Positions 26,565-35,132 of a stretch of 64,000 nt of DNA are shown here, piece by piece. Within the stretch, counting starts at the first letter, position 1. The number at the start of each line of letters is the position of its first letter. The position numbers were made by a program, and so were the translations under genes. A model generated the notes under the pieces. The model worked only from the letters and a program-made list of their open reading frames with translations, was not told the origin of the DNA and searched no databases. The stretch covers positions 35,739 through 99,738 of the forward strand of contig PSLL01000003.1 of NCBI GenBank assembly GCA_040289575.1, given 5' to 3'. This DNA comes from Candidatus Dadabacteria bacterium. Its GTDB lineage: Bacteria > Desulfobacterota_D > UBA1144 > Nemesobacterales > CSP1-2.

Positions 26565-27920
26565 CTAAACGGATTTCCTGGGGGGTATAATGGTTGCCTC
26601 TCCTACTTCTTTATGAATCTTCAGCATCGGAAATGGGTCTTTACCAGTAATTAAGAGCGCGCTGCGCTTTCTTGTAAAGTAGTTCCAAGCCCATTGGAAG
26701 AGAACTAGAACCTTATTATCAAATTCAACCAGATTAAGAATATGCACAAAGACCCATATCAACCAGGCAAAGAATCCATCGAACTTGAACCTACCTAAAT
26801 CTGCCACTGCTTTATTTCTTCCAATCACCGCAAGGCTGCCCTTGTTATTGTAACGAAAAGGTGGAGGGGTATTGCCTTTAATACGCTCTTTAATGGCATT
26901 TGCCACATACGGTCCTTCCTGCATGGCTACGGATGCCACACCGGGAAGCGGTTTTCCATTATCGTGCGGATAATTGGCCAGGTCACCAATCACAAATATA
27001 TTTGGATAATTCGGTATGGTAAAATCGGGCTGGACTATTACACGTCCAACGTGGTCTAATTCAACCCCAGTTCCTTTAGACAGGACCTGCCCCAAGAAAG
27101 ATGCCTTTACCCCTGCAGCCCAGAGTATCGTTTGGGCCTGGATTTGATCTATGCGATTGCCATTGCGCGTTGTTACGGTGGTGCCTTTATTAATATCGGT
27201 TACCATTGTGTTGGTTTGCACTTTTACATTCAGTTGGGCAAGCGCCCGCTGTGCCTTTGCAGAAAGGTCCGGCGGATATGTAGGCAGTATCCGATCGGCT
27301 CCTTCTATCAATATAATTTCCGATTCCGCCGTATTTATATTCTGAAAATCATCCTTGAGCGTGGTATATGCAAGCTCTCCTATGGCTCCTGCCAGCTCTA
27401 CACCCGTGGGGCCGCCTCCGACTATAATGAATCTCATCCATGCACGACGCATCTTCGGATCCGGTTCCCGCTCTGCCACTTCAAATGAGAGAAATATACG
27501 TCTGCGTATCTCCAGCGCGTCTTCTACTGTCTTTAACCCTGGAGCCATTTGCGCCCACTCATCATGACCAAAGTAGTGATGACTTGAGCCTGTGGCAACG
27601 ATCAAAGTGTCGTAAGTGATTTCCCCATCACGGAGAATAACCCTTTGTCCGTTCGGATCAATGTCAACTACCTCGGCAGTGAACACCCATATATTTTTAT
27701 AACGGTTTAATACAGCGCGTATTGGAGAAGCGATATCGCCGGGAGACAGCCCGCCTATAGCCACTTGATAGAGAAGCGGCTGGAACAGATGGAAATTGCG
27801 TTTGTCTATAATCGTGACCTTTACCGGAGAGTTTCCAAGTGTTCTTGCGGCATAGAGCCCCGCAAAGCCGCCTCCAATAATTACTACATGATGAATATAA
27901 CCGTTTTTTCTATCCGCCAT
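26565..27920 (-). CDS. ndh: Type II NADH dehydrogenase
   Basis: GGGFAG, FQPLLYQVA, GGGPTGVELAG, WAAGV, IGD.A, A.QEG. Confidence 0.93.
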   Translation of the reverse strand: MADRKNGYIHHVVIIGGGFAGLYAARTLGNSPVKVTIIDKRNFHLFQPLLYQVAIGGLSPGDIASPIRAVLNRYKNIWVFTAEVVDIDPNGQRVILRDGEITYDTLIVATGSSHHYFGHDEWAQMAPGLKTVEDALEIRRRIFLSFEVAEREPDPKMRRAWMRFIIVGGGPTGVELAGAIGELAYTTLKDDFQNINTAESEIILIEGADRILPTYPPDLSAKAQRALAQLNVKVQTNTMVTDINKGTTVTTRNGNRIDQIQAQTILWAAGVKASFLGQVLSKGTGVELDHVGRVIVQPDFTIPNYPNIFVIGDLANYPHDNGKPLPGVASVAMQEGPYVANAIKERIKGNTPPPFRYNNKGSLAVIGRNKAVADLGRFKFDGFFAWLIWVFVHILNLVEFDNKVLVLFQWAWNYFTRKRSALLITGKDPFPMLKIHKEVGEATIIPPRKSV

Positions 27921-28109
27921 GATCTGATTTGTCTATCCTCATATTAGTTAATCACACAAATAGTATGGTATCAACAAAAACTTTTGGAAGAAACAACCAT
28001 ATTGAATACAGATTTGTTAGAGAGTCTAAACCTGTTTTGAAAGTGTAGATTAGGAATAAAAAATTGGGTATTTCACCAGTTTTGCCGACGAACTTATGTT
28101 ATATAATCA

Positions 28110-29495
28110 ATGCGAGGTCAGTATGAAAATGGTATAACTAATAGGGTGAAATCAAAAAGAGATACCACACGTCTGTTGGCTTTTAAAATACTAAACAGAG
28201 TGCTCTTTGGAGGGGCCTATCCAGACCTCGTGCTCAAAAGCACATTTGAGAGAAACCCGGACCCCAACCATCTGGATAAATCCCTTTTGACGGAAATAGT
28301 CTATGGCGTTATCAGATGGCTGGGGAAATTGGACTACATAATAGCCCTTTTTATAGAGAGGAGGGTTAATAAAAAGGAGATTCTTAATATACTGAGAATT
28401 GGACTATATCAACTCCTATTCTTAGACAGCGTTCCTAATTATGCCGCAATCTCCGAGACTGTAGATGTTGCAAAAGGCGTATTCGGAGAGAGGGTTGCCG
28501 GATTTGTCAATGCGATTTTAAGAGGGTTCTTAAGAAGCAAAGAGAACATACGCTATCCTGAGAAGGAGTCAAGTCCAATAAGTTACATATCTGTAAACCA
28601 TTCTTTCCCTCAGTGGCTTGTAGAGAAGTGGATAGATTCATTTGGGTTAGATTTCACAGAAAGGCTCTGTTATTCGCTTAACCGGATTCCACCCCTTACA
28701 GTAAGGGTAAACACGCTCAAGACAACAAGGGAGAATTTAATCCAAAATATAGAAGATAGAGACATCGAAGTGATAAAGACTAAATATTCGCCGACTGGAA
28801 TCTCATTTTTAACCGGTATCAACCCTGTAGAGATTCCAGGATTTGAATCAGGGCTTTTTACAGTTCAGGATGAAGGAGCACAGATTATTTCCCTTCTCCT
28901 CAATCCAAGGCCGGGAGAGAGAATACTCGATGCATGCAGTGCACCCGGCGGAAAATCCACACACATTGCAGAACTCATGGAGAATCGGGGAGAGATTATA
29001 GCGTGTGATATTAATCCATCAAGACTAAAACTGATCGAGTCACAATCAAGAAGATTAGGAGTAAAAATAATTAAAACGATTTGTGCCGATGCCTCTGACA
29101 AGGGGTTTCTAGAAGGAGAGAGGTTTGATAGGATTCTAATTGACGCTCCGTGCTCAGGGCTTGGAACTATTAGAAGGAACCCAGATACAAAATGGAAGAG
29201 AACACAAAACGATATACTTGAACTCTCGGATATCCAGTTTAAAATTTTATCTAATGTATCGGCTAGACTTAAAGGAAATGGTACAATCATCTATTCGGTG
29301 TGCACGCTGATGCCAGAGGAAAATGAGGGTTTGATACGGAGGTTTCTATCTTCACACCCGGAGTTTAGGATTGACTTAGAGATAGAATCAAACTCATATA
29401 TTAAAGACTTTCTAGATGAAAATGGATTTTTCATTTCCAATCCGATAAGGCATAATATGGATGGGTTCTTTGCTGTACGAATGAAAAAAAATTAG
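28110..29495 (+). CDS. rsmB: 16S rRNA m5C967 methyltransferase
   Basis: NusB-like N-terminus (GFVNAILR), VQDEG, DACSAPGGKS, DAPCSG.G, YSVC, MDGFF. Confidence 0.95.
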   Translation: MRGQYENGITNRVKSKRDTTRLLAFKILNRVLFGGAYPDLVLKSTFERNPDPNHLDKSLLTEIVYGVIRWLGKLDYIIALFIERRVNKKEILNILRIGLYQLLFLDSVPNYAAISETVDVAKGVFGERVAGFVNAILRGFLRSKENIRYPEKESSPISYISVNHSFPQWLVEKWIDSFGLDFTERLCYSLNRIPPLTVRVNTLKTTRENLIQNIEDRDIEVIKTKYSPTGISFLTGINPVEIPGFESGLFTVQDEGAQIISLLLNPRPGERILDACSAPGGKSTHIAELMENRGEIIACDINPSRLKLIESQSRRLGVKIIKTICADASDKGFLEGERFDRILIDAPCSGLGTIRRNPDTKWKRTQNDILELSDIQFKILSNVSARLKGNGTIIYSVCTLMPEENEGLIRRFLSSHPEFRIDLEIESNSYIKDFLDENGFFISNPIRHNMDGFFAVRMKKN

Positions 29496-29514
29496 GTAGG
29501 GAATCATAATCAAT

Positions 29515-30204
29515 ATGAAGAGATTTATAGTTCCTTCTATTCTTTCCTCCGATTTTACTAGATTGGGAGAGGAGGTAAAAGCTGTCCAGAGGGCGGAAGC
29601 CGATTGGATTCATGTGGATGTAATGGACGGTCATTTTGTACCCAATATAACCATAGGGGTTCCTGTGGTGAGGTCGCTTAAGGACCTGAATCCACCTATG
29701 ATGGATATCCATCTTATGATTGAGAATCCTGACAGATTTATTCGATCCTTTATTGAAGCGGGAGAGCCGTTTGTAAAGGCCATAACGGTTCAGGTAGAGG
29801 CATGCGGGCTTCTCTATAGTACTATAGCTGAGATTAGGTCTTATGGAGTAATGGCTGGGGTTGCAATCAATCCGGGAACCCCGATTTCTTCAATAGAGGA
29901 GATTCTTCCCTATATAGATTTGATTCTTGTAATGACAGTAGAGCCGGGTTTTGCGGAGCAGAAGTTCATTAAGACGATGATTCCGAAGGTAAAACGATTG
30001 AGGCATATAATTGACAACTCAGAATACAAGCCACTTATTTCGGTTGACGGCGGAATTAAATTGGATAACATTCGAGAAGTGGCCGAGGCTGGGGCGGATA
30101 TATTTGTTTCTGGTTCAGGTATATTCAAGACCAAAAACTATGCCGAAACTATATGGGCAATGAGAAGAGAGGTAGAAGATGCTGGAAGGAAAAGTGATAG
30201 ATAG
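29515..30204 (+). CDS. rpe: Ribulose-phosphate 3-epimerase
   Basis: PSILS.DF, HVDVMDGHFVPN, DIHLM, VDGGI, SGS.IF. Confidence 0.95.
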   Translation: MKRFIVPSILSSDFTRLGEEVKAVQRAEADWIHVDVMDGHFVPNITIGVPVVRSLKDLNPPMMDIHLMIENPDRFIRSFIEAGEPFVKAITVQVEACGLLYSTIAEIRSYGVMAGVAINPGTPISSIEEILPYIDLILVMTVEPGFAEQKFIKTMIPKVKRLRHIIDNSEYKPLISVDGGIKLDNIREVAEAGADIFVSGSGIFKTKNYAETIWAMRREVEDAGRKSDR

Positions 30205-31201
30205 TACCCTTTGGGTAAAAGGACAGATTGAGGGAAAGATTGAGAGAGGGCATTTTAAATCCGCCATTCCTCTAATTGAGAAACTCCTAAGACTTGGGCG
30301 AAACAGCCTAACCCTCAAGGAGTTTGCATACGCAAACCTCGGACACGCATACCTATCTCTAAGGAGGTTTGATAAAGCCGAGTACTGCCTAAAGAAGGCT
30401 ATTAAATTAAACCCTAGGGAGTCGCGTTATCACTACCTTCTCGGTCTTGCCTATAGCGCATCTGGCATGATTTCAGATGCCCTTAAGGAGTTTGAATACA
30501 CAGTCCAAATAGTTGATAATAAAAGCGAGTATCAGCGTGCCCTTGGTTGGGCAAAGTTCGTTTCTGGACAGACCACAGAGGGAATAAAACACTTAAAAAG
30601 GGCATTGGATTTGGATAATAGGAATGTCTATGCCTATGCTGACCTTGCATCATGTTATATGAAGATGAACCGGTTTAATGAGGCAATTAGAACTCTAAGG
30701 AAGGGACTCTTGAGGGTTCCGGGGGATCCCTTTTTACTCCGCACACAAAATGTGGTTGAGCGTACGGGGGATGAATATAAGAAGGTTAAAGAAGAAGAGA
30801 AAAGGGTCAGGTATAGAATTGATAAGATAAAGGATTCTGAATTTCACAAGGTAAGAAAATCGCTTCTTCAAGGGATGAGGCTGGCTGGATATAGCGAGAC
30901 TCAGAAAAAGAGCGCCGAGAAGCTCTGGTACGATTTTTATAAAATGAGGAAGCTCCAAATCAGGCGTCCCGAGAGCTGGGCTGCTGCCCTCGAATACACT
31001 ATAGCGAGGTTGGACCTAATAGAAGGGGAAACACAAAAGACGGTTGCCTCTAAATACGGTGTCTCGGAAACGATTGTTTCTTCTCGATTTAACGATATAT
31101 GCCGTACACTTGACATTAGGGTCTTTGATAAAAGGTACTACTCTATAGAAGAGGATTTCTTCATAGGTATATTGCATGGCCTCTCTCTCAGGGATGAGTA
31201 G
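30179..31201 (+). CDS. TPR-repeat protein with C-terminal TFIIB/cyclin-like helical domain
   Basis: About 4-5 TPRs (AYANLG.AY...A...LKKAIKLNP), then RRPESWAAALEY...ETQKTVASKYGVSETIVSSRFNDI. Overlaps the rpe stop. Confidence 0.8.
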   Translation: MLEGKVIDSTLWVKGQIEGKIERGHFKSAIPLIEKLLRLGRNSLTLKEFAYANLGHAYLSLRRFDKAEYCLKKAIKLNPRESRYHYLLGLAYSASGMISDALKEFEYTVQIVDNKSEYQRALGWAKFVSGQTTEGIKHLKRALDLDNRNVYAYADLASCYMKMNRFNEAIRTLRKGLLRVPGDPFLLRTQNVVERTGDEYKKVKEEEKRVRYRIDKIKDSEFHKVRKSLLQGMRLAGYSETQKKSAEKLWYDFYKMRKLQIRRPESWAAALEYTIARLDLIEGETQKTVASKYGVSETIVSSRFNDICRTLDIRVFDKRYYSIEEDFFIGILHGLSLRDE

Positions 31202-31228
31202 TGTGTCGGGTGTTGGATATTAGGTGAT

Positions 31229-31903
31229 ATGTATGTGCTATTACCTGAATATCTAAGAGATATGGCATATAAAAACTCATACATTAGTGACATACAAAAT
31301 TACTTTCTTTTTCTGGTTGACAGGGGAATTATGCTCTCCCCTAAGGATTATGATCTCATTATGAAATGGAAAAGAAGAGGAGTTCCCAAGGAGATTGTAT
31401 ATAGGGGTATAAATAAGGCGATTGAGAATTTAAGGAAGAAAAGAAGCAGCATCTCATTTTTAAGAGGTCTTGATGAATGCGCTCCGTTTATTGAGGGGGA
31501 GATAAGGAATCACCGGAGCAGTATGGAGAATGAATCTGTCATCGAATCAACCAGAGGTGACATTATTAAAAGGGTTGCCGAGAGACTTGCCGCAATAATA
31601 ACGAATGAAAATATGGAGAGTATAAGGCGACACTATATAGAGATTAGAAAAAGGGTTTTGGATTTGACGAATTCAAATGAGGATGTTTTTAAGGCAATAG
31701 AGAAAATAGAAGAGGAATCCTATGAGGACTTTTTTCAAACCCTGTCCCCAGAGGAAAAAAAGAGGATAGGGCAGATGGCCGAAGGTATGATTGACAAGGA
31801 AAGAGGACATCTTATGACCGATAAGGCCCGACGCGAAAGTGTTTTATCATTTCGTAATGAGATACTGAGGAGGGATTACAAACTAATTAGGATATTCTCA
31901 TAA
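31229..31903 (+). CDS. Hypothetical protein with DnaD/DnaB-like N-terminal segment
   Basis: RGIMLSPKDYDLIMKWKRRGVPKEIVYRGINKA resembles the DnaD lSp.e...i..W.....e.i..A motif. Charged helical C-terminus. Directly precedes a DnaC-like ATPase. Confidence 0.6.
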   Translation: MYVLLPEYLRDMAYKNSYISDIQNYFLFLVDRGIMLSPKDYDLIMKWKRRGVPKEIVYRGINKAIENLRKKRSSISFLRGLDECAPFIEGEIRNHRSSMENESVIESTRGDIIKRVAERLAAIITNENMESIRRHYIEIRKRVLDLTNSNEDVFKAIEKIEEESYEDFFQTLSPEEKKRIGQMAEGMIDKERGHLMTDKARRESVLSFRNEILRRDYKLIRIFS

Positions 31904-31915
31904 CACTTAAAAACC

Positions 31916-32773
31916 ATGGTGAGGGTAATTAAAGGCAAAACCATAGGGTGTGACGGTTGTCGTTGGAGGGGATACTCTGTTGAAAAGAGGGGAGACCTTT
32001 CTATAGCGAGGGTTTGTGAGTGCATATTAGGAAACCTAGAACGCAAACGCGCTGGTTGCCCGGAATGCGGTGGTAGCGGTTCGGTTCTATCTAAAAATGA
32101 AAGAGGGTACACCTGCATCAATATCTGTAGTGTGTGTGGGATAGCACGAAGAAAGGTAAAATTATACAACCTGGCAGGTATTCCGGCTAAGTATTGGGAG
32201 GTACTTCAACCGGATACATTTTATCCCAAGAATGGATCGCAACAAGATGCACTTACGTATGTAAAGGACTTTGTAAAACAATACCCACATAAGAAGGGTT
32301 TTCTTCTTATGGGAGGGCCTGGTCGCGGCAAAACACATCTTGCCATTGGAGCTATATCTGAGCTTACACTGGAGCGCGGAGTGAAATGCATGTTTAAGGA
32401 TTTTTTTCACCTTCTTTCCGAGCTTAAAGAGGCATACTCAGAGGGAACACCGGAGAATACGGTGCTCTTTCCCCTTATAGAAACCGAGGTTCTTGTCATA
32501 GATGAGCTTGGTAAAGGAAAGAGCAGCGATTGGGAACTCAATATACTAGATCAATTGATTTCAAAGAGATATAACGCATCAAAGATGACTTTGGCAACCA
32601 CGAATTATGTTTCCAGAGGGTATGCAATGCGGAAGGATGAAGAACAGCAAATACTTGAAGACAGAATTGGGGAGAGAATTGCTTCAAGGCTCTATGAGAT
32701 GTGTGAATTCATATATATTGAGGGCGACGACCATAGAGGCGAGGGCCATAAAAAGGCAAGAAAGAGGGCCTAA
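31916..32773 (+). CDS. DnaC/DnaI/IstB-like AAA+ ATPase with Cys-rich N-terminus
   Basis: CDGC, CEC, CPECGGSG, CSVC; Walker A GGPGRGKTH; Walker B LVIDELG; ISKRYN, TTN, ERIASRLYEMC. Confidence 0.9.
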   Translation: MVRVIKGKTIGCDGCRWRGYSVEKRGDLSIARVCECILGNLERKRAGCPECGGSGSVLSKNERGYTCINICSVCGIARRKVKLYNLAGIPAKYWEVLQPDTFYPKNGSQQDALTYVKDFVKQYPHKKGFLLMGGPGRGKTHLAIGAISELTLERGVKCMFKDFFHLLSELKEAYSEGTPENTVLFPLIETEVLVIDELGKGKSSDWELNILDQLISKRYNASKMTLATTNYVSRGYAMRKDEEQQILEDRIGERIASRLYEMCEFIYIEGDDHRGEGHKKARKRA

Positions 32774-33804
32774 AACCTCCAAAACCCGGAGTGTATCCTT
32801 TTTACATTCTCTATAACAGGGTCTACCTTTGTCTCTTGTGTTAGGTCTTCATAATCGGTCTGTGTCTTTTCAAGTAATTCATCGATCACCGCTTTTGTAG
32901 ATTCCCAGAGGCCGTCTAGATTATATCCGCCTTCGAGGATTAGAATTATCTTCCCCTTGCAGTGTTCCTCTGACATCTCTTTTAAAAATCTGGTCATTTG
33001 GGCGAAACCTCTCGGAGTGACCTTCATTCCTCCGAGGGGGTCTTCATAATACGCGTCGAATCCGGCGGAGACCAGGATAATCTGAGGTTTATATTGGTCA
33101 ATAACAGGCTTTAGAATCTGGAAGAAGATTCTTATGTATTCTCTATCTCCCATCCCCAGAGGAAGAGGCACATTAATCGTGTATCCCATTCCCTTTCCCG
33201 TTCCTACTTCTTCTATTCTCCCTGTTCCCGGATAGTATGGATACTGATGCGTGGAAAAATATAGGACATCGGGGGAATCATAGAACATATGCTGAGTTCC
33301 ATTTCCATGATGAAGGTCCCAATCAACTATTAGTATGCGTTCCATTCCGTAGAATTTATTGGCATAAGCCGCGCCTATCGCGACATTATTAAATATACAA
33401 AACCCCATAGCCTTATTCCTCTCGGCATGATGTCCGGGCGGGCGGACAAGTGGAAATGCCATATCAACCTCCCCTTTTAAGACACTATCAACTGAAGAGA
33501 CCATTCCGCCTGCAGCCCGAACCGCCGCATTAAACGACACAGGGCATGTGGATGTATCGGTGTCCAGAAATACCCTCATTCTTCCTCTTGTTGACTGAAT
33601 AAAGTCAAAGTATCTAGGTTCGTGGACGAGTGTGATTTCCTCTTTTGTCGCATCGCGGGGCTGAATCATTATTAATTCATCAATGAGCCTTGTTCCGTTC
33701 AGCATATCAACAATTGCAAGAAGCCTTTCCTGAGACTCGGGGTGTCCACTGCCGTTATCATGGTCAAAGTAGAGTTTGTCAAGAACGATACCCAACCTTT
33801 TCAT
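32770..33804 (-). CDS. Zn-dependent deacetylase (HDAC family)
   Basis: HPES..RL, RPPGHHA, GFCIFNN, DWDLHHGNGT, SAGFD, LEGGY. Confidence 0.95.
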   Translation of the reverse strand: MKRLGIVLDKLYFDHDNGSGHPESQERLLAIVDMLNGTRLIDELIMIQPRDATKEEITLVHEPRYFDFIQSTRGRMRVFLDTDTSTCPVSFNAAVRAAGGMVSSVDSVLKGEVDMAFPLVRPPGHHAERNKAMGFCIFNNVAIGAAYANKFYGMERILIVDWDLHHGNGTQHMFYDSPDVLYFSTHQYPYYPGTGRIEEVGTGKGMGYTINVPLPLGMGDREYIRIFFQILKPVIDQYKPQIILVSAGFDAYYEDPLGGMKVTPRGFAQMTRFLKEMSEEHCKGKIILILEGGYNLDGLWESTKAVIDELLEKTQTDYEDLTQETKVDPVIENVKRIHSGFWRF

Positions 33805-33875
33805 TTGGTTAAAAGGTAACACAGGTTAAAATAGGGCGCAATATTGCTAATAGCACAAGAACCGAAACTTCAATC

Positions 33876-35132
33876 CTATTTTTGAAGACTTTTTATAGCC
33901 CCAACCAAGTAGAGAGAACCAGTAATACACACAGGAAATGAAAGTGACTTTACCCTATAGAATGCCTCCCTAAAATCCTCTACGATCTCCACCTCATCTA
34001 AAAACTCCTCTGCTATCTTAGCCAATTTCTCTGAGTTAACACTTCTTTGAGACGGCACATCGGTTATTATAATAGATTGAGCAACCTGAGAGATCTCACT
34101 CATATACCCCTTATGATCCTTATCCGCAAGCATCCCAACTAAGAATACAAACCTCATTCCCGGAAACAATCTCTGAATTGACTCCCTCAGAGCCCGTGCC
34201 CCACCCGGATTATGCGCACCATCAAGAATAATAGGCGGGCTGTATCTCAGAAACTCCATCCTCCCCTCCCATTTTACAGATAAGAGTCCAGTTCTCAGAT
34301 TCTTCTCTTTTATCTCCATCCCATAGAACCGACAGAGGAATTCAAGCGTACAAATAGCGACAGAGGCGTTTTCAATCTGATAAAATCCGGGTAGGGCAAA
34401 CCTAAGGTGGTCGAGGTTCCATTCCAATCCGGAATAACTAAAATCATCTGTGCTCTCTCCAGCGCTCATAAAATCCCTTTCCATTACACTAATTGGGGCA
34501 GATTTCCCATAAGCTACGGACTCAATTACATCAAGTGCCTCTCCCTTTGCGGCAGTTACAACAGGCACACCGGGCTTTATGATCCCAGCCTTTTCAAAGG
34601 CTATCTTCTCTACAGTATCTCCCAAAAACTCCGTATGGTCTTTTGAGACGTTTGTGATAACCGAAAGAAGAGGGGCAACTACATTAGTTGCATCCCATCG
34701 TCCTCCCATCCCCACCTCAACCACAGAAAAATCCACCTCTTTTTCCAAGAAGTAGAGAAACGCACACGCTGTAAGAACCTCAAAATAACTCGGCTCTTGT
34801 GAGAAACAAGAAGAAAGATTCTTAATATCCAAAATCAATCTGGACAGATCATCAATAAGAATCTCTTCATCATTTACCTTTATCCTCTCCGAGACCCTTA
34901 TAAGATGAGGAGAGGTATAAAGCCCAACATTATAGCCATGAGATCTGAGAACGGATGCAATTGTGGCCGAAACAGAGCCTTTTCCATTTGTTCCTCCAAT
35001 AATGATGCTGTGCATTCTATCCTGGGGATTCCCAAGGGCAGAGAGAAGTCTGGTAATCCTCTCAAGACCAGGATTTACTCTATGGAGTCCAAGGGAATTA
35101 AGATAAGAGATTGCATCCACTTTTATTCTCAA
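33876..35132 (-). CDS. folC: Folylpolyglutamate/dihydrofolate synthase
   Basis: GTNGKGS, YTSPHL, EVGMGGRWDATN, LDGAHN, TGSLYLVG. Confidence 0.95.
   Translation of the reverse strand: MRIKVDAISYLNSLGLHRVNPGLERITRLLSALGNPQDRMHSIIIGGTNGKGSVSATIASVLRSHGYNVGLYTSPHLIRVSERIKVNDEEILIDDLSRLILDIKNLSSCFSQEPSYFEVLTACAFLYFLEKEVDFSVVEVGMGGRWDATNVVAPLLSVITNVSKDHTEFLGDTVEKIAFEKAGIIKPGVPVVTAAKGEALDVIESVAYGKSAPISVMERDFMSAGESTDDFSYSGLEWNLDHLRFALPGFYQIENASVAICTLEFLCRFYGMEIKEKNLRTGLLSVKWEGRMEFLRYSPPIILDGAHNPGGARALRESIQRLFPGMRFVFLVGMLADKDHKGYMSEISQVAQSIIITDVPSQRSVNSEKLAKIAEEFLDEVEIVEDFREAFYRVKSLSFPVCITGSLYLVGAIKSLQK

What the first reader, a model, noticed from the sequence alone, without database searches (positions are those of the whole stretch)
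30179..32773. Candidate undescribed module: TPR-TFIIB-like protein + DnaD-like protein + Cys-rich DnaC-like ATPase, coupled to rsmB-rpe
Seen: three intact, co-oriented genes closely packed (a 26-nt overlap with rpe, then 27- and 12-nt gaps) in a housekeeping operon, with no phage or IS genes nearby. Established: DnaD/DnaB-domain proteins paired with a DnaI/DnaC AAA+ ATPase load replicative helicases in Firmicutes and phages, and IstB acts with an IstA transposase, which is absent here. Inference: this may be a chromosomal (possibly domesticated phage-type) helicase-loading or replication-restart module in a diderm, with a TPR/DNA-binding adaptor as an unrecognised third component.
Basis: partly seen in the sequence, partly recalled or inferred. 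Interest (0 to 1): 0.72.

Follow-up and report, generated by a model that had tools for sequence, protein, structure and literature searches.

The report
Conserved two-gene replicative helicase loader
Two of the three genes are a conserved pair that most likely loads the replicative DNA helicase in an uncultured bacterial phylum lacking the usual loader gene, while the third (TPR) gene is a recent insertion found only in the closest relatives.

Summary
The three ORFs exist exactly as described. P3 (285 aa) is a DnaC/DnaI-type AAA+ helicase loader. Its closest solved relative is the DnaC of PDB 3ECC (E 1.1e-38), and it carries an N-terminal eight-cysteine domain. P2 (224 aa) has no Pfam hit, but 32 of 36 orthologues match the phage family 'DnaD-like helicase loader'.

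P2 and P3 were each found in 98 of 101 genomes of the order. They are adjacent in 97 of those 98. DciA was found in 0 of 120 genomes of the phylum. The same pair occurs in a second, distant class, usually right behind gyrB.

The TPR gene P1 is not part of the module. Its specific domain occurs in 3 of 120 genomes, all of one genus. Another lineage has unrelated genes inserted at the same spot.

Verdict: this is a core, vertically inherited DnaD-like plus DnaC-like helicase-loading pair, and a new lineage-level member of a known kind. The three-component idea is not supported. No binding or loading was shown.

The parts
29515..30204 (+). rpe (ribulose-phosphate 3-epimerase), the conserved upstream neighbour of the loader genes throughout the phylum
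   Evidence: PF00834, 4.7e-73. The rpe-P2-P3 or rpe-P3 order is seen in the loci.
30179..31201 (+). P1: TPR protein (about 4 repeats, residues ~20-190) with a helical C-terminal domain (residues ~195-340). It is a genus-restricted insertion between rpe and P2 and not a conserved part of the module.
   Evidence: TPR_2 2.2e-23 and TPR_1 4.4e-21. The C-terminal domain is found in 3 of 120 genomes of the phylum. Full length is found in 3 of 41 relatives. Two metagenome loci show the same arrangement.
31229..31903 (+). P2: DnaD-like protein. The N-terminal four-helix domain (residues ~15-100) is related to the C-terminal domain of phage 'DnaD-like helicase loaders'. The C-terminal helical region (residues ~108-217) has no recognised family. 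The true start may be 31235 or 31262.
31916..32179 (+). P3 N-terminal eight-cysteine domain (C12, C15, C34, C36, C48, C51 in a CxxCxGxG motif, C71, C74). It is predicted as two beta-hairpin pairs and is presumably a two-zinc module.
   Evidence: Six Cys are invariant and two are at least 90% conserved in 23 rows. Strands 20-25, 28-33, 56-60 and 66-70 appear in the model. The pattern is kept in 7 of 8 rows of a second class and is degenerate in the clade without P2.
32213..32773 (+). P3 AAA+ module of the DnaC/DnaI/IstB clade, with Walker A GPGRGKT, Walker B VIDE and sensor I TTN
   Evidence: PF01695 at 62.3 bits. PDB 3ecc at E 1.1e-38. Foldseek 3ecc at E 1.4e-14, TM 0.85, 36% identity. Motifs.
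28110..29495 (+). rsmB (16S rRNA m5C methyltransferase), the head of the co-oriented gene string. It is context only.
   Evidence: PF01189 1e-58 and NusB 1.1e-28. The order rsmB-rpe-P2-P3 is seen in several families.

Best explanation
P2 and P3 form the replicative-helicase loading system of this lineage. The lineage is Candidatus Dadabacteria-type, judged from the titles of related MAG contigs. P3 is a DnaC-type AAA+ loader. By analogy with DnaC and DnaI, its AAA+ module would assemble on the DnaB hexamer and on single-stranded DNA in an ATP-dependent way. Its N-terminal eight-cysteine (probably two-zinc) domain would be the protein-contact domain. P2 is a DnaD-like co-loader or adaptor, translated from the same operon, that would connect the loader-helicase complex to the initiator (DnaA at oriC) or to PriA at stalled forks. 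This is what DnaD and DnaB do with DnaI in Bacillus and what 'DnaD-like' proteins are annotated to do beside DnaC-like proteins in phages. P1 (TPR) is a recent insertion into a variable junction and is not a component.

Shown here: homology of P3 and of the P2 N-domain, intact ATPase motifs, single copy, phylum-wide synteny, conservation of the pair across phyla, absence of DciA, and the restricted range of P1. Inferred: every physical interaction, zinc binding, helicase loading itself, and the adaptor role of P2.
For: P3:
- PF01695 scores 62.3 bits against a cut-off of 24.1, and phrog_50 'DnaC-like helicase loader' gives 3.6e-44.
- The profile search against PDB ranks DnaC 3ecc (1.1e-38) above E. 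coli DnaC 6qel (4.6e-22), 2qgz (1.4e-20), DnaI 2w58 (3e-13) and IstB 5bq5 (5.9e-13).
- The model has pLDDT 90 and pTM 0.87. Its best Foldseek hit is 3ecc, with TM 0.85 by target.
- Walker A, Walker B and sensor I are intact.

P2:
- 32 of 36 orthologues hit phrog_7498 and 12 of 36 hit phrog_16826. Both are named 'DnaD-like helicase loader', and no other PHROG matched at E<=1e-3.
- Remote family members P0137 and P0139 hit phrog_7498 at 3.7e-10 and 3.6e-13.
- P0137 reaches Pfam DnaB_2 at 22.9 bits against a cut-off of 22, and NCBI names it 'DnaD domain protein'.

Own genome: one DnaB, one DnaA and PriA. There is no DciA. Besides P3, the only PF01695 hit over the cut-off falls in the dnaA ORF.

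Phylum:
- P2 is found in 98 of 120 genomes, which is 98 of 101 in the order.
- P3 is found in 114 of 120 genomes, and the same three genomes of the order lack both.
- DciA is found in 0 of 120, with 7 of 14 control genomes ringing as expected.
- P2 lies immediately upstream of P3 on the same strand in 97 of the 98 genomes that have both. I compared the coordinates by eye.

Second class (the class of a MAG titled 'Myxococcales bacterium'):
- P3-type is found in 59 of 61 genomes and P2-type in 45 of 61.
- P2 is followed by P3 in 8 of 8 loci, one of them cut by a contig end.
- gyrB lies directly upstream and co-oriented in 6 of 8 loci.

Other points:
- Phage A403 has the same gene order, DnaD-like then DnaC-like, 13 nt apart.
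- Precedent: B. subtilis DnaB, a DnaD-type co-loader, contacts DnaA, DnaD and DnaI (PMC13326638; abstract and section headings read).
- In the clade that lacks P2 (0 of 19 genomes), P3 has lost the first four cysteines in 5 of 5 rows examined.
Against: - No interaction or activity was tested.
- P2 itself gets no Pfam or NCBIfam hit of relevance.
- Pfam DnaB_2 rings nowhere in the six-frame translation of the own genome at E<=1, nor in 61 genomes of the second class at E<=0.01. Only 4 of 36 orthologues give weak DnaB_2 hits, the best at 0.0015.
- Foldseek against PDB and against viral models finds nothing significant for P2.
- P2 lacks the N-terminal winged-helix domain of DnaD, since its model has no strand.
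- P3 is below every curated NCBIfam cut-off: DnaC 54 of 357, DnaI 52.6 of 228 and PRK08116 107.8 of 189.
- P2 is dispensable in one clade that keeps P3: P3 is present in 16 of 19 genomes and P2 in 0 of 19.
- Loader exclusivity is not strict. In the second class, 6 of 61 genomes have a DciA-domain hit over the cut-off, and 5 of those also have P3.
- In one family (f7) P3 has Walker B DG instead of DE (4 of 4 rows) and TTK instead of the sensor I TTN motif. ATP hydrolysis may therefore not be universally needed.
Confidence: 0.72

Rival explanations
1. One reading: a three-component module in which the TPR/TFIIB-like protein P1 is an adaptor that works with P2 and P3.
For: P1 overlaps rpe and sits 27 nt before P2. 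Wherever it occurs it keeps this place: G000, G001, G002 and two metagenome loci. TPR domains fused to DciA are reported in Nitrospinae and Rokubacteria (Blaine et al. preprint, passage read). The C-terminal fold resembles TFIIB cyclin-like domains at TM 0.59-0.61 (a lead only).
Against: The P1 C-terminal domain occurs in 3 of 120 genomes of the phylum, all in one genus. P1 is present in 4 of 45 loci, which are two genomes fetched twice, and in 0 of 20 loci. The pair works without it in 95 other genomes of the order and in the second class, where gyrB, not a TPR gene, lies upstream. The rpe-P2 junction holds unrelated genes in another lineage.
Confidence: 0.08
2. P3 is an IS21-type IstB transposition helper, or the pair is a decayed prophage replication module with no host function.
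For: PF01695 is named after IstB. Phage genomes carry the same DnaD-like then DnaC-like order. P3 is 25-29% identical to phage DnaC-like proteins.
Against: P3 is single-copy and no IstA is nearby. The IstB equivalog scores 62.8 bits against a cut-off of 200. IstB structures rank below DnaC and DnaI. Synteny is the same across the phylum, sequence similarity falls with taxonomic distance, and the careful tree recovers two lineage clades with full support while leaving deeper forks open. P2 has no tblastn hit in 50,697 phage records. Composition is unremarkable.
Confidence: 0.03
3. P2 and P3 act only in replication restart or another DNA transaction, while DnaB is loaded at oriC by an unrecognised factor or by DnaA alone.
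For: PriA is present. In Bacillus the same proteins serve both initiation and restart (recalled). P2 is dispensable in the reduced-genome clade. Five genomes of the second class carry both a DciA-domain gene and P3.
Against: DciA is found in 0 of 120 genomes and there is no second DnaC-like gene. P3 is kept even in the ~1 Mb genomes (16 of 19), as expected of an essential function. It sits next to gyrB in the second class.
Confidence: 0.12
4. P2 is functionally unrelated to P3, for example a small regulator that merely shares the operon.
For: P2 evolves much faster than P3: 20-71% identity against 33-88% in the same genomes. It is absent from one clade. The C-terminal half has no known family.
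Against: P2 and P3 are adjacent in 97 of 98 genomes. The pairing is kept in a second class although the surrounding genes differ. P2 is homologous to phage proteins that sit beside DnaC-like loaders. P2 and the first zinc site of P3 are lost together.
Confidence: 0.05

Closest known systems
DnaC of PDB 3ECC/3EC2 ('DnaC helicase loader'). That it is from Aquifex aeolicus, Mott et al. 2008, is recalled and comes from no call.
   Same: It is the closest solved relative of the P3 AAA+ module: E 1.1e-38 by profile, 36% identity and TM 0.85. Both are chromosomal loaders in lineages outside Enterobacteria and Firmicutes.
   Different: P3 carries an N-terminal eight-cysteine domain of about 88 residues that the crystallised fragment does not cover. 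The match starts at profile position 88. I could not check whether Aquificae have a P2-like partner.
Bacillus subtilis DnaD / DnaB (co-loaders) with DnaI (AAA+ loader)
   Same: A DnaD-type helical domain protein works with a DnaC/I-clade ATPase that has an N-terminal zinc domain for partner contact. DnaI-N binds one Zn through C67, C70, H84 and C101 and mediates helicase binding (PMC2673437, passages read). DnaB contacts DnaA, DnaD and DnaI (PMC13326638, abstract read).
   Different: There is one co-loader gene instead of two. P2 has only a DDBH2-like domain followed by a different helical tail, with no winged-helix N-domain. The P3 N-domain has eight Cys and four strands, whereas DnaI-N has four helices, two strands and one Zn. 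The DnaI equivalog scores 52.6 bits against a cut-off of 228.
Phage replication modules 'DnaD-like helicase loader' plus 'DnaC-like helicase loader' (e.g. Anoxybacillus phage A403 gp40-gp39; PHROGs 7498, 16826, 50)
   Same: The gene order and tight spacing are the same. P2 and P3 hit exactly these PHROG families.
   Different: Here the pair is a single-copy core chromosomal locus inherited along the phylum. Identity to phage proteins is low: P3 is 25-29% identical, P2 has no tblastn hit, and hhalign against two single phage proteins is not significant. The phage DnaD-like proteins are longer (281 aa) and match P2 only with their C-terminal third, profile positions 176-271 of 296.
Escherichia coli DnaC (PDB 6QEL/6QEM)
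   Same: It belongs to the same AAA+ clade and has the same presumed job (4.6e-22).
   Different: No DnaD-like partner and no Cys-rich domain are known for E. coli DnaC (recalled). The DnaC equivalog scores 54 bits against a cut-off of 357.
DciA (PF05258), the common bacterial helicase operator
   Same: It is presumed to hold the same place in the replication pathway. Brezellec et al. 2016 (PMC5109545, passages read) report dna[CI] acquired at least seven times at the expense of dciA.
   Different: It is unrelated in sequence and is not an ATPase. It is absent here (0 of 120). The lineages studied here are not among the seven events named in that paper.

Membership tests
DnaC/DnaI/IstB clade of AAA+ ATPases (PF01695) | Pfam model matched above the gathering score | tested here: met
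   62.3 bits against 24.1, residues 126-275
DnaC/DnaI/IstB clade of AAA+ ATPases (PF01695) | Intact Walker A, Walker B and sensor I | tested here: met
   GPGRGKT, VIDE and TTN in the window protein. G136, K139 and D196 are invariant in 23 rows.
Replicative helicase loader (DnaC/DnaI type) as opposed to IstB | Closer to solved loaders than to IstB, with no IstA partner, single copy and stable chromosomal locus | tested here: met
Replicative helicase loader (DnaC/DnaI type) as opposed to IstB | Binds and loads the cognate DnaB helicase | not testable with these tools
   Needs biochemistry. No P3-DnaB model was run.
NCBIfam equivalogs DnaC (NF005931), DnaI (NF006505), IstB (NF038214) and subfamily PRK08116 | Score at or above the curated cut-off | tested here: not met
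   54 of 357, 52.6 of 228, 62.8 of 200 and 107.8 of 189. P3 is therefore not an orthologue of any of these named groups.
DnaD / DnaB_2 domain (PF07261, DDBH2) | Pfam model matched above the gathering score | tested here: not met
   P2 has no hit at E<=0.1 and the own genome has none at E<=1. 4 of 36 orthologues hit weakly, the best at 0.0015. 1 of 70 remote family representatives reaches 22.9 bits against a cut-off of 22. 0 of 61 genomes of the second class ring.
Phage 'DnaD-like helicase loader' families (phrog_7498, phrog_16826) | Profile match of the protein and of its orthologues | tested here: met
   P2 scores 2.6e-5. 32 of 36 and 12 of 36 orthologues match at E<=1e-3, the best at 1.3e-11.
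DnaD / DnaB_2 domain (PF07261, DDBH2) | Fold of the DnaD C-terminal domain | tested here: inconclusive
DnaD proper (Bacillus type) | N-terminal winged-helix oligomerisation domain (DDBH1) | tested here: not met
   The P2 model is all helical. The DnaD-like part starts at about residue 15 and no strand is predicted.
TPR proteins (P1) | TPR repeat models above the gathering score | tested here: met
   TPR_2 at 80.8 bits, TPR_1 at 74.2 and TPR_19 at 67.7
TFIIB (P1 C-terminus) | TFIIB model above the cut-off | tested here: not met
   NF001658 scores 15.2 bits against 384. The Atlas fold rows give TM 0.59-0.61 and are a lead only.
DciA (PF05258) | Presence of the domain anywhere in the genome | tested here: not met
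   0 hits in the own genome, which is 95% complete. 0 of 120 in the phylum, with controls ringing in 7 of 14 genomes.

The most novel reading that the evidence does not exclude
P2 defines a large family of single-domain DnaD-like co-loaders that Pfam does not cover and that I did not find described. The family has 1934 representative clusters at E<=1e-3. It is obligately paired with a two-zinc DnaC-type loader in several non-Firmicute phyla: Dadabacteria, a class holding a 'Myxococcales' MAG, and, by leads only, Acidobacteriota and Aminicenantota. In this reading P2 docks on the first zinc site of the P3 N-domain. That would explain why the clade that lost P2 also lost those four cysteines. 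The pair would then be an ancient cellular loading system alternative to DciA rather than a set of recent phage captures.
Probability: 0.25. Interest if true: 0.65.

Novelty: new member of a known kind. Interest (0 to 1): 0.42.

Why it matters
How DnaB is loaded in bacteria without DciA, outside E. coli, Bacillus and Aquifex, is poorly charted. The 2016 survey named seven acquisitions of DnaC/I-type loaders in 5 of 26 phyla (PMC5109545). Here a whole candidate phylum (0 of 120 genomes with DciA) and most sampled genomes of a second class rely, by inference, on a DnaC-type loader with a distinctive eight-cysteine domain. In most of them it has a fixed DnaD-like partner that Pfam does not recognise.

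This gives three things:
- a functional name for a widespread 'hypothetical protein';
- natural contrasts for experiments: a clade without P2 that also lacks zinc site I, and a family with a Walker B DG loader;
- a caution that loader exclusivity with DciA is not strict (5 of 61 genomes carry both).

I found no paper on helicase loaders of Dadabacteria (0 papers). For Myxococcota, one search returned 6 papers of which I saw only the listing, and none has the subject in its title. Supplements of PMC5109545 were not read and may list more taxa.

Tried and rejected
- The profile of P2 against PDB sequences gave only influenza haemagglutinin HA2 coiled-coil rows (best 6.2e-5, two weak stretches). 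I read these as compositional noise from the helical C-terminal half.
- Foldseek of the P2 model against PDB and BFVD gave 0 matches at E<=0.001. A 'DnaD-like replication protein' appears at rank 8 with E 1.4, which is not significant.
- hhalign of the P2 alignment against single phage proteins (A403 gp40 and the ORF before the DnaC-like gene of phage TPELB_ph1) gave E 0.55 and 0.86. The A403 alignment does fall on the expected motif (P2 36-63) but is not significant.
- Complex prediction of P3 with P2 (collected) returned no verdict (score 0.00, mark 0.32). It counts neither for nor against binding.
- RNA runs: no RNA holder was listed.
- The promoter and terminator scan of 27800-33900 gave counts equal to shuffles: 13 against 13.2 and 5 against 5.8. 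It says nothing on operon structure.
- tblastn of P2 against phages found no match.
- The search for P0192 in metagenome contigs returned only two close relatives of the window locus and one weak TPR hit.
- The P3 trees (quick, careful) recover f9 and f7 as clades with full support. They leave the deep order and the placement of the two phage rows open because of very long branches, so I draw no conclusion on the number or direction of transfers. All 39 rows were kept. X residues were removed from the 16 rows translated in the script; only one of them, an f9 row, showed X.
- I considered and rejected an Hda- or DnaA-like regulator (TIGR03420 at 20.1 bits against 194.8) and ZapE (31 of 140).
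- Earlier scan notes by place and by sequence gave nothing relevant.

Full report
**Observation**

One search confirms three co-oriented ORFs on the + strand: P1 at 30179..31201 (340 aa), P2 at 31229..31903 (224 aa) and P3 at 31916..32773 (285 aa). Upstream are rsmB and rpe. Downstream is a convergent deacetylase-family gene. Further out lie an NDH-2-type oxidoreductase and a FolC/Mur-ligase-type gene. Base composition is unremarkable. Titles of closely related MAG contigs place the organism among Candidatus Dadabacteria, which NCBI also labels Thermodesulfobacteriota.

**P3**

P3 matches PF01695 at 62.3 bits and phrog_50 'DnaC-like helicase loader' at 3.6e-44. It falls below the curated cut-offs of the NCBIfam DnaC, DnaI and IstB models and of the PRK08116 subfamily model.

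A profile of 23 orthologues ranks the DnaC of PDB 3ecc first (1.1e-38). E. coli DnaC, DnaI-type proteins and IstB follow. That 3ecc is from Aquifex aeolicus is recalled. The AF2 model (pLDDT 90, pTM 0.87) gives the same order by Foldseek, with 3ecc at TM 0.85 and 36% identity. Walker A, Walker B and sensor I are intact.

The first ~88 residues hold eight cysteines. Six are invariant and two are at least 90% conserved. One pair sits in a CxxCxGxG motif. The model places them on two pairs of beta strands. A two-zinc module is inferred and not shown. It differs from the one-zinc, mainly helical N-domain of B. subtilis DnaI that binds the helicase (PMC2673437, passages read).

**P2**

Pfam and NCBIfam give nothing relevant for P2 itself. 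The AF2 model (pLDDT 88.5) is all helical, with an N-terminal bundle (residues ~15-100) and a C-terminal helical region.

The sequence evidence is stronger.
- P2 hits phrog_7498 'DnaD-like helicase loader' at 2.6e-5.
- 32 of 36 orthologues hit phrog_7498 and 12 of 36 hit phrog_16826, which has the same name. No other PHROG matched at E<=1e-3.
- The family is large. It has 1934 representative clusters at E<=1e-3 among 1.84 billion proteins.
- Of 70 remote representatives scanned, one reaches Pfam DnaB_2 just over its cut-off. NCBI names that protein 'DnaD domain protein [Bradymonadia bacterium]'.

Against membership in PF07261: the model rings neither in the own genome nor in 61 genomes of the second class.

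I therefore call P2 DnaD-like, related to the C-terminal domain of phage DnaD-like proteins. It is not a member of Pfam DnaB_2, and it is not DnaD proper because it has no winged-helix N-domain.

**Distribution in the phylum**

The own genome (95% complete) has one DnaB, one DnaA and PriA. It has no DciA and no second DnaC-like gene.

Across the 120 species genomes of the phylum:
- P2 is found in 98, which is 98 of 101 in the window's order and 0 of 19 in a sister clade with ~1 Mb genomes.
- P3 is found in 114. That is 98 of 101 in the order, with the same three genomes lacking both, and 16 of 19 in the small-genome clade.
- DciA is found in 0 of 120, while 7 of 14 control genomes ring as expected.

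By eye from the coordinates, P2 lies directly upstream of P3 on the same strand in 97 of 98 genomes. The exception is G034, where an apparent inversion leaves rpe-P2 on one strand and P3 1.6 kb away on the other.

The surrounding order, (rsmB-)rpe-P2-P3 followed by the convergent deacetylase gene and the FolC-type gene, recurs through the order. In the small-genome clade rpe is followed directly by P3 (7 of 7 loci). There P3 lacks the first four cysteines (5 of 5 rows).

Two lineage clades of P3, f9 and f7, are recovered with full support. The deeper order is unresolved and the two phage rows sit on very long branches.

**Beyond the phylum**

One distant hit lies in a MAG titled 'Myxococcales bacterium'. 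Results in 61 genomes sampled from its class:
- A P3-type gene is found in 59 and a P2-type gene in 45.
- In the eight loci fetched, P2-like is followed at once by P3-like. One of these is cut by a contig end.
- All eight cysteines are kept in 7 of 8 rows.
- gyrB lies directly upstream and co-oriented in 6 of 8 loci. rpe does not.

The P2-P3 link thus survives a complete change of neighbourhood. In that class it is tied to a replication gene.

DciA-domain hits over the cut-off occur in 6 of these 61 genomes, and five of those also have P3. Exclusivity is therefore not strict. MAG contamination is untested.

**Relation to phages**

Anoxybacillus phage A403 carries 'DnaD-like helicase loader' then 'DnaC-like helicase loader', 13 nt apart. 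This is the same order as P2-P3. The window proteins are distant from phage ones. P3 is 25-29% identical and P2 has no tblastn hit. Nothing suggests a recent prophage.

**P1**

P1 is a real TPR protein with a helical C-terminal domain of uncertain kind. Full-length P1 occurs in 3 of 41 relatives, namely the own genome and its two congeners. Its C-terminal domain occurs in 3 of 120 genomes of the phylum, plus one marginal hit at another place in a fourth genome. The large protein collection holds 16 relatives, all 56-100% identical. Two metagenome loci repeat the window's arrangement.

Elsewhere rpe abuts P2. In another lineage a sigma-54 activator and a methyltransferase occupy the same junction. 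The junction is therefore a variable spot and P1 is a recent occupant.

**Mechanism**

The mechanism is inferred. P3 hexamers or spirals engage DnaB and ssDNA with ATP, as DnaC does. The cysteine domain makes the protein contacts. P2 acts as a DnaD-type adaptor between the initiator or PriA and the loader-helicase complex. This parallels B. subtilis DnaB, which contacts DnaA, DnaD and DnaI (PMC13326638, abstract and headings read).

The joint loss of P2 and of the first four cysteines of P3 hints that P2 docks there. That is a single evolutionary event, so the evidence is weak. The one complex prediction available gave no verdict.

**Novelty**

DnaC/I-type loaders replacing DciA are known, and Brezellec et al. 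name seven events, none in these lineages (PMC5109545, passages read). DnaD-like plus DnaC-like pairs are known in Firmicutes and phages.

Earlier notes of this scan report DnaD-like plus zinc-ribbon loader operons in Chloroflexota and a DnaC-like gene beside DciA in an actinobacterium. These notes are unchecked by me.

I found no paper on Dadabacteria loaders. In the listing, none of the 6 papers is titled on Myxococcota loaders. This is a new lineage-level member of a known kind, with a partner family that Pfam does not cover.

Noticed in passing
L063, L068, L072, L074 (family f7 of the order; genomes of 1.2-1.6 Mb): The P3 orthologues have Walker B DG instead of DE (4 of 4 rows). In the two rows shown they have TTK instead of the sensor I TTN motif. 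The loader may be hydrolysis-deficient in this family. P2 is still adjacent there but is only 20-26% identical.
   Followed up: partly
L084-L090 (clade f9, ~1 Mb genomes, another order of the class): rpe is followed directly by P3. P2 and the deacetylase gene are absent. P3 has lost the first four of the eight cysteines, and its Walker B is DD.
   Followed up: partly
L029:931-4237 (also the ~3.4 kb spacing in L036 and L070, and ~1 kb in L041): The rpe-P2 junction holds a PAS/sigma-54 activator and a class I methyltransferase in another lineage. L036, L070 and L041 were not examined.
   Followed up: partly
G124, G126, G134, G136, G159 (class of G120): These genomes give a DciA-domain hit over the Pfam cut-off and also carry the P3-type loader. 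This could be true co-occurrence or MAG contamination. It was not resolved.
   Followed up: no
L024, L025, L035, L040, L051 (record titles): Contigs whose P3 is 61-87% identical to the window's are titled 'uncultured Spirochaetia bacterium' or 'Ignavibacteriales bacterium', while their neighbours in the list are Dadabacteria or Thermodesulfobacteriota. These are probably mislabelled MAG taxonomy.
   Followed up: no
window 31229-31262: There are three candidate starts for P2: ATG 31229, GTG 31235 (7 nt after AGGTGA, and the start in the Atlas record) and ATG 31262 (where orthologues begin).
   Followed up: partly
P0101, P0106, P0117, P0122, P0137, P0156, P0163, P0165, P0172: These longer members of the P2 family (249-307 aa) match the profile in two stretches, and the best-scoring stretch is the N-terminal domain. 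They may carry two copies of the DnaD-like domain, as B. subtilis DnaB does (recalled).
   Followed up: no
L074 (G034:C13): This is the only genome where P2 and P3 are separated. rpe-P2 lies on one strand and folC-P3 on the other, 1.6 kb apart, which looks like a local inversion.
   Followed up: no
window 32770-32773: The P3 stop and the stop of the convergent deacetylase-family gene overlap by 4 nt. This tail-to-tail arrangement is kept through most of the order.
   Followed up: no
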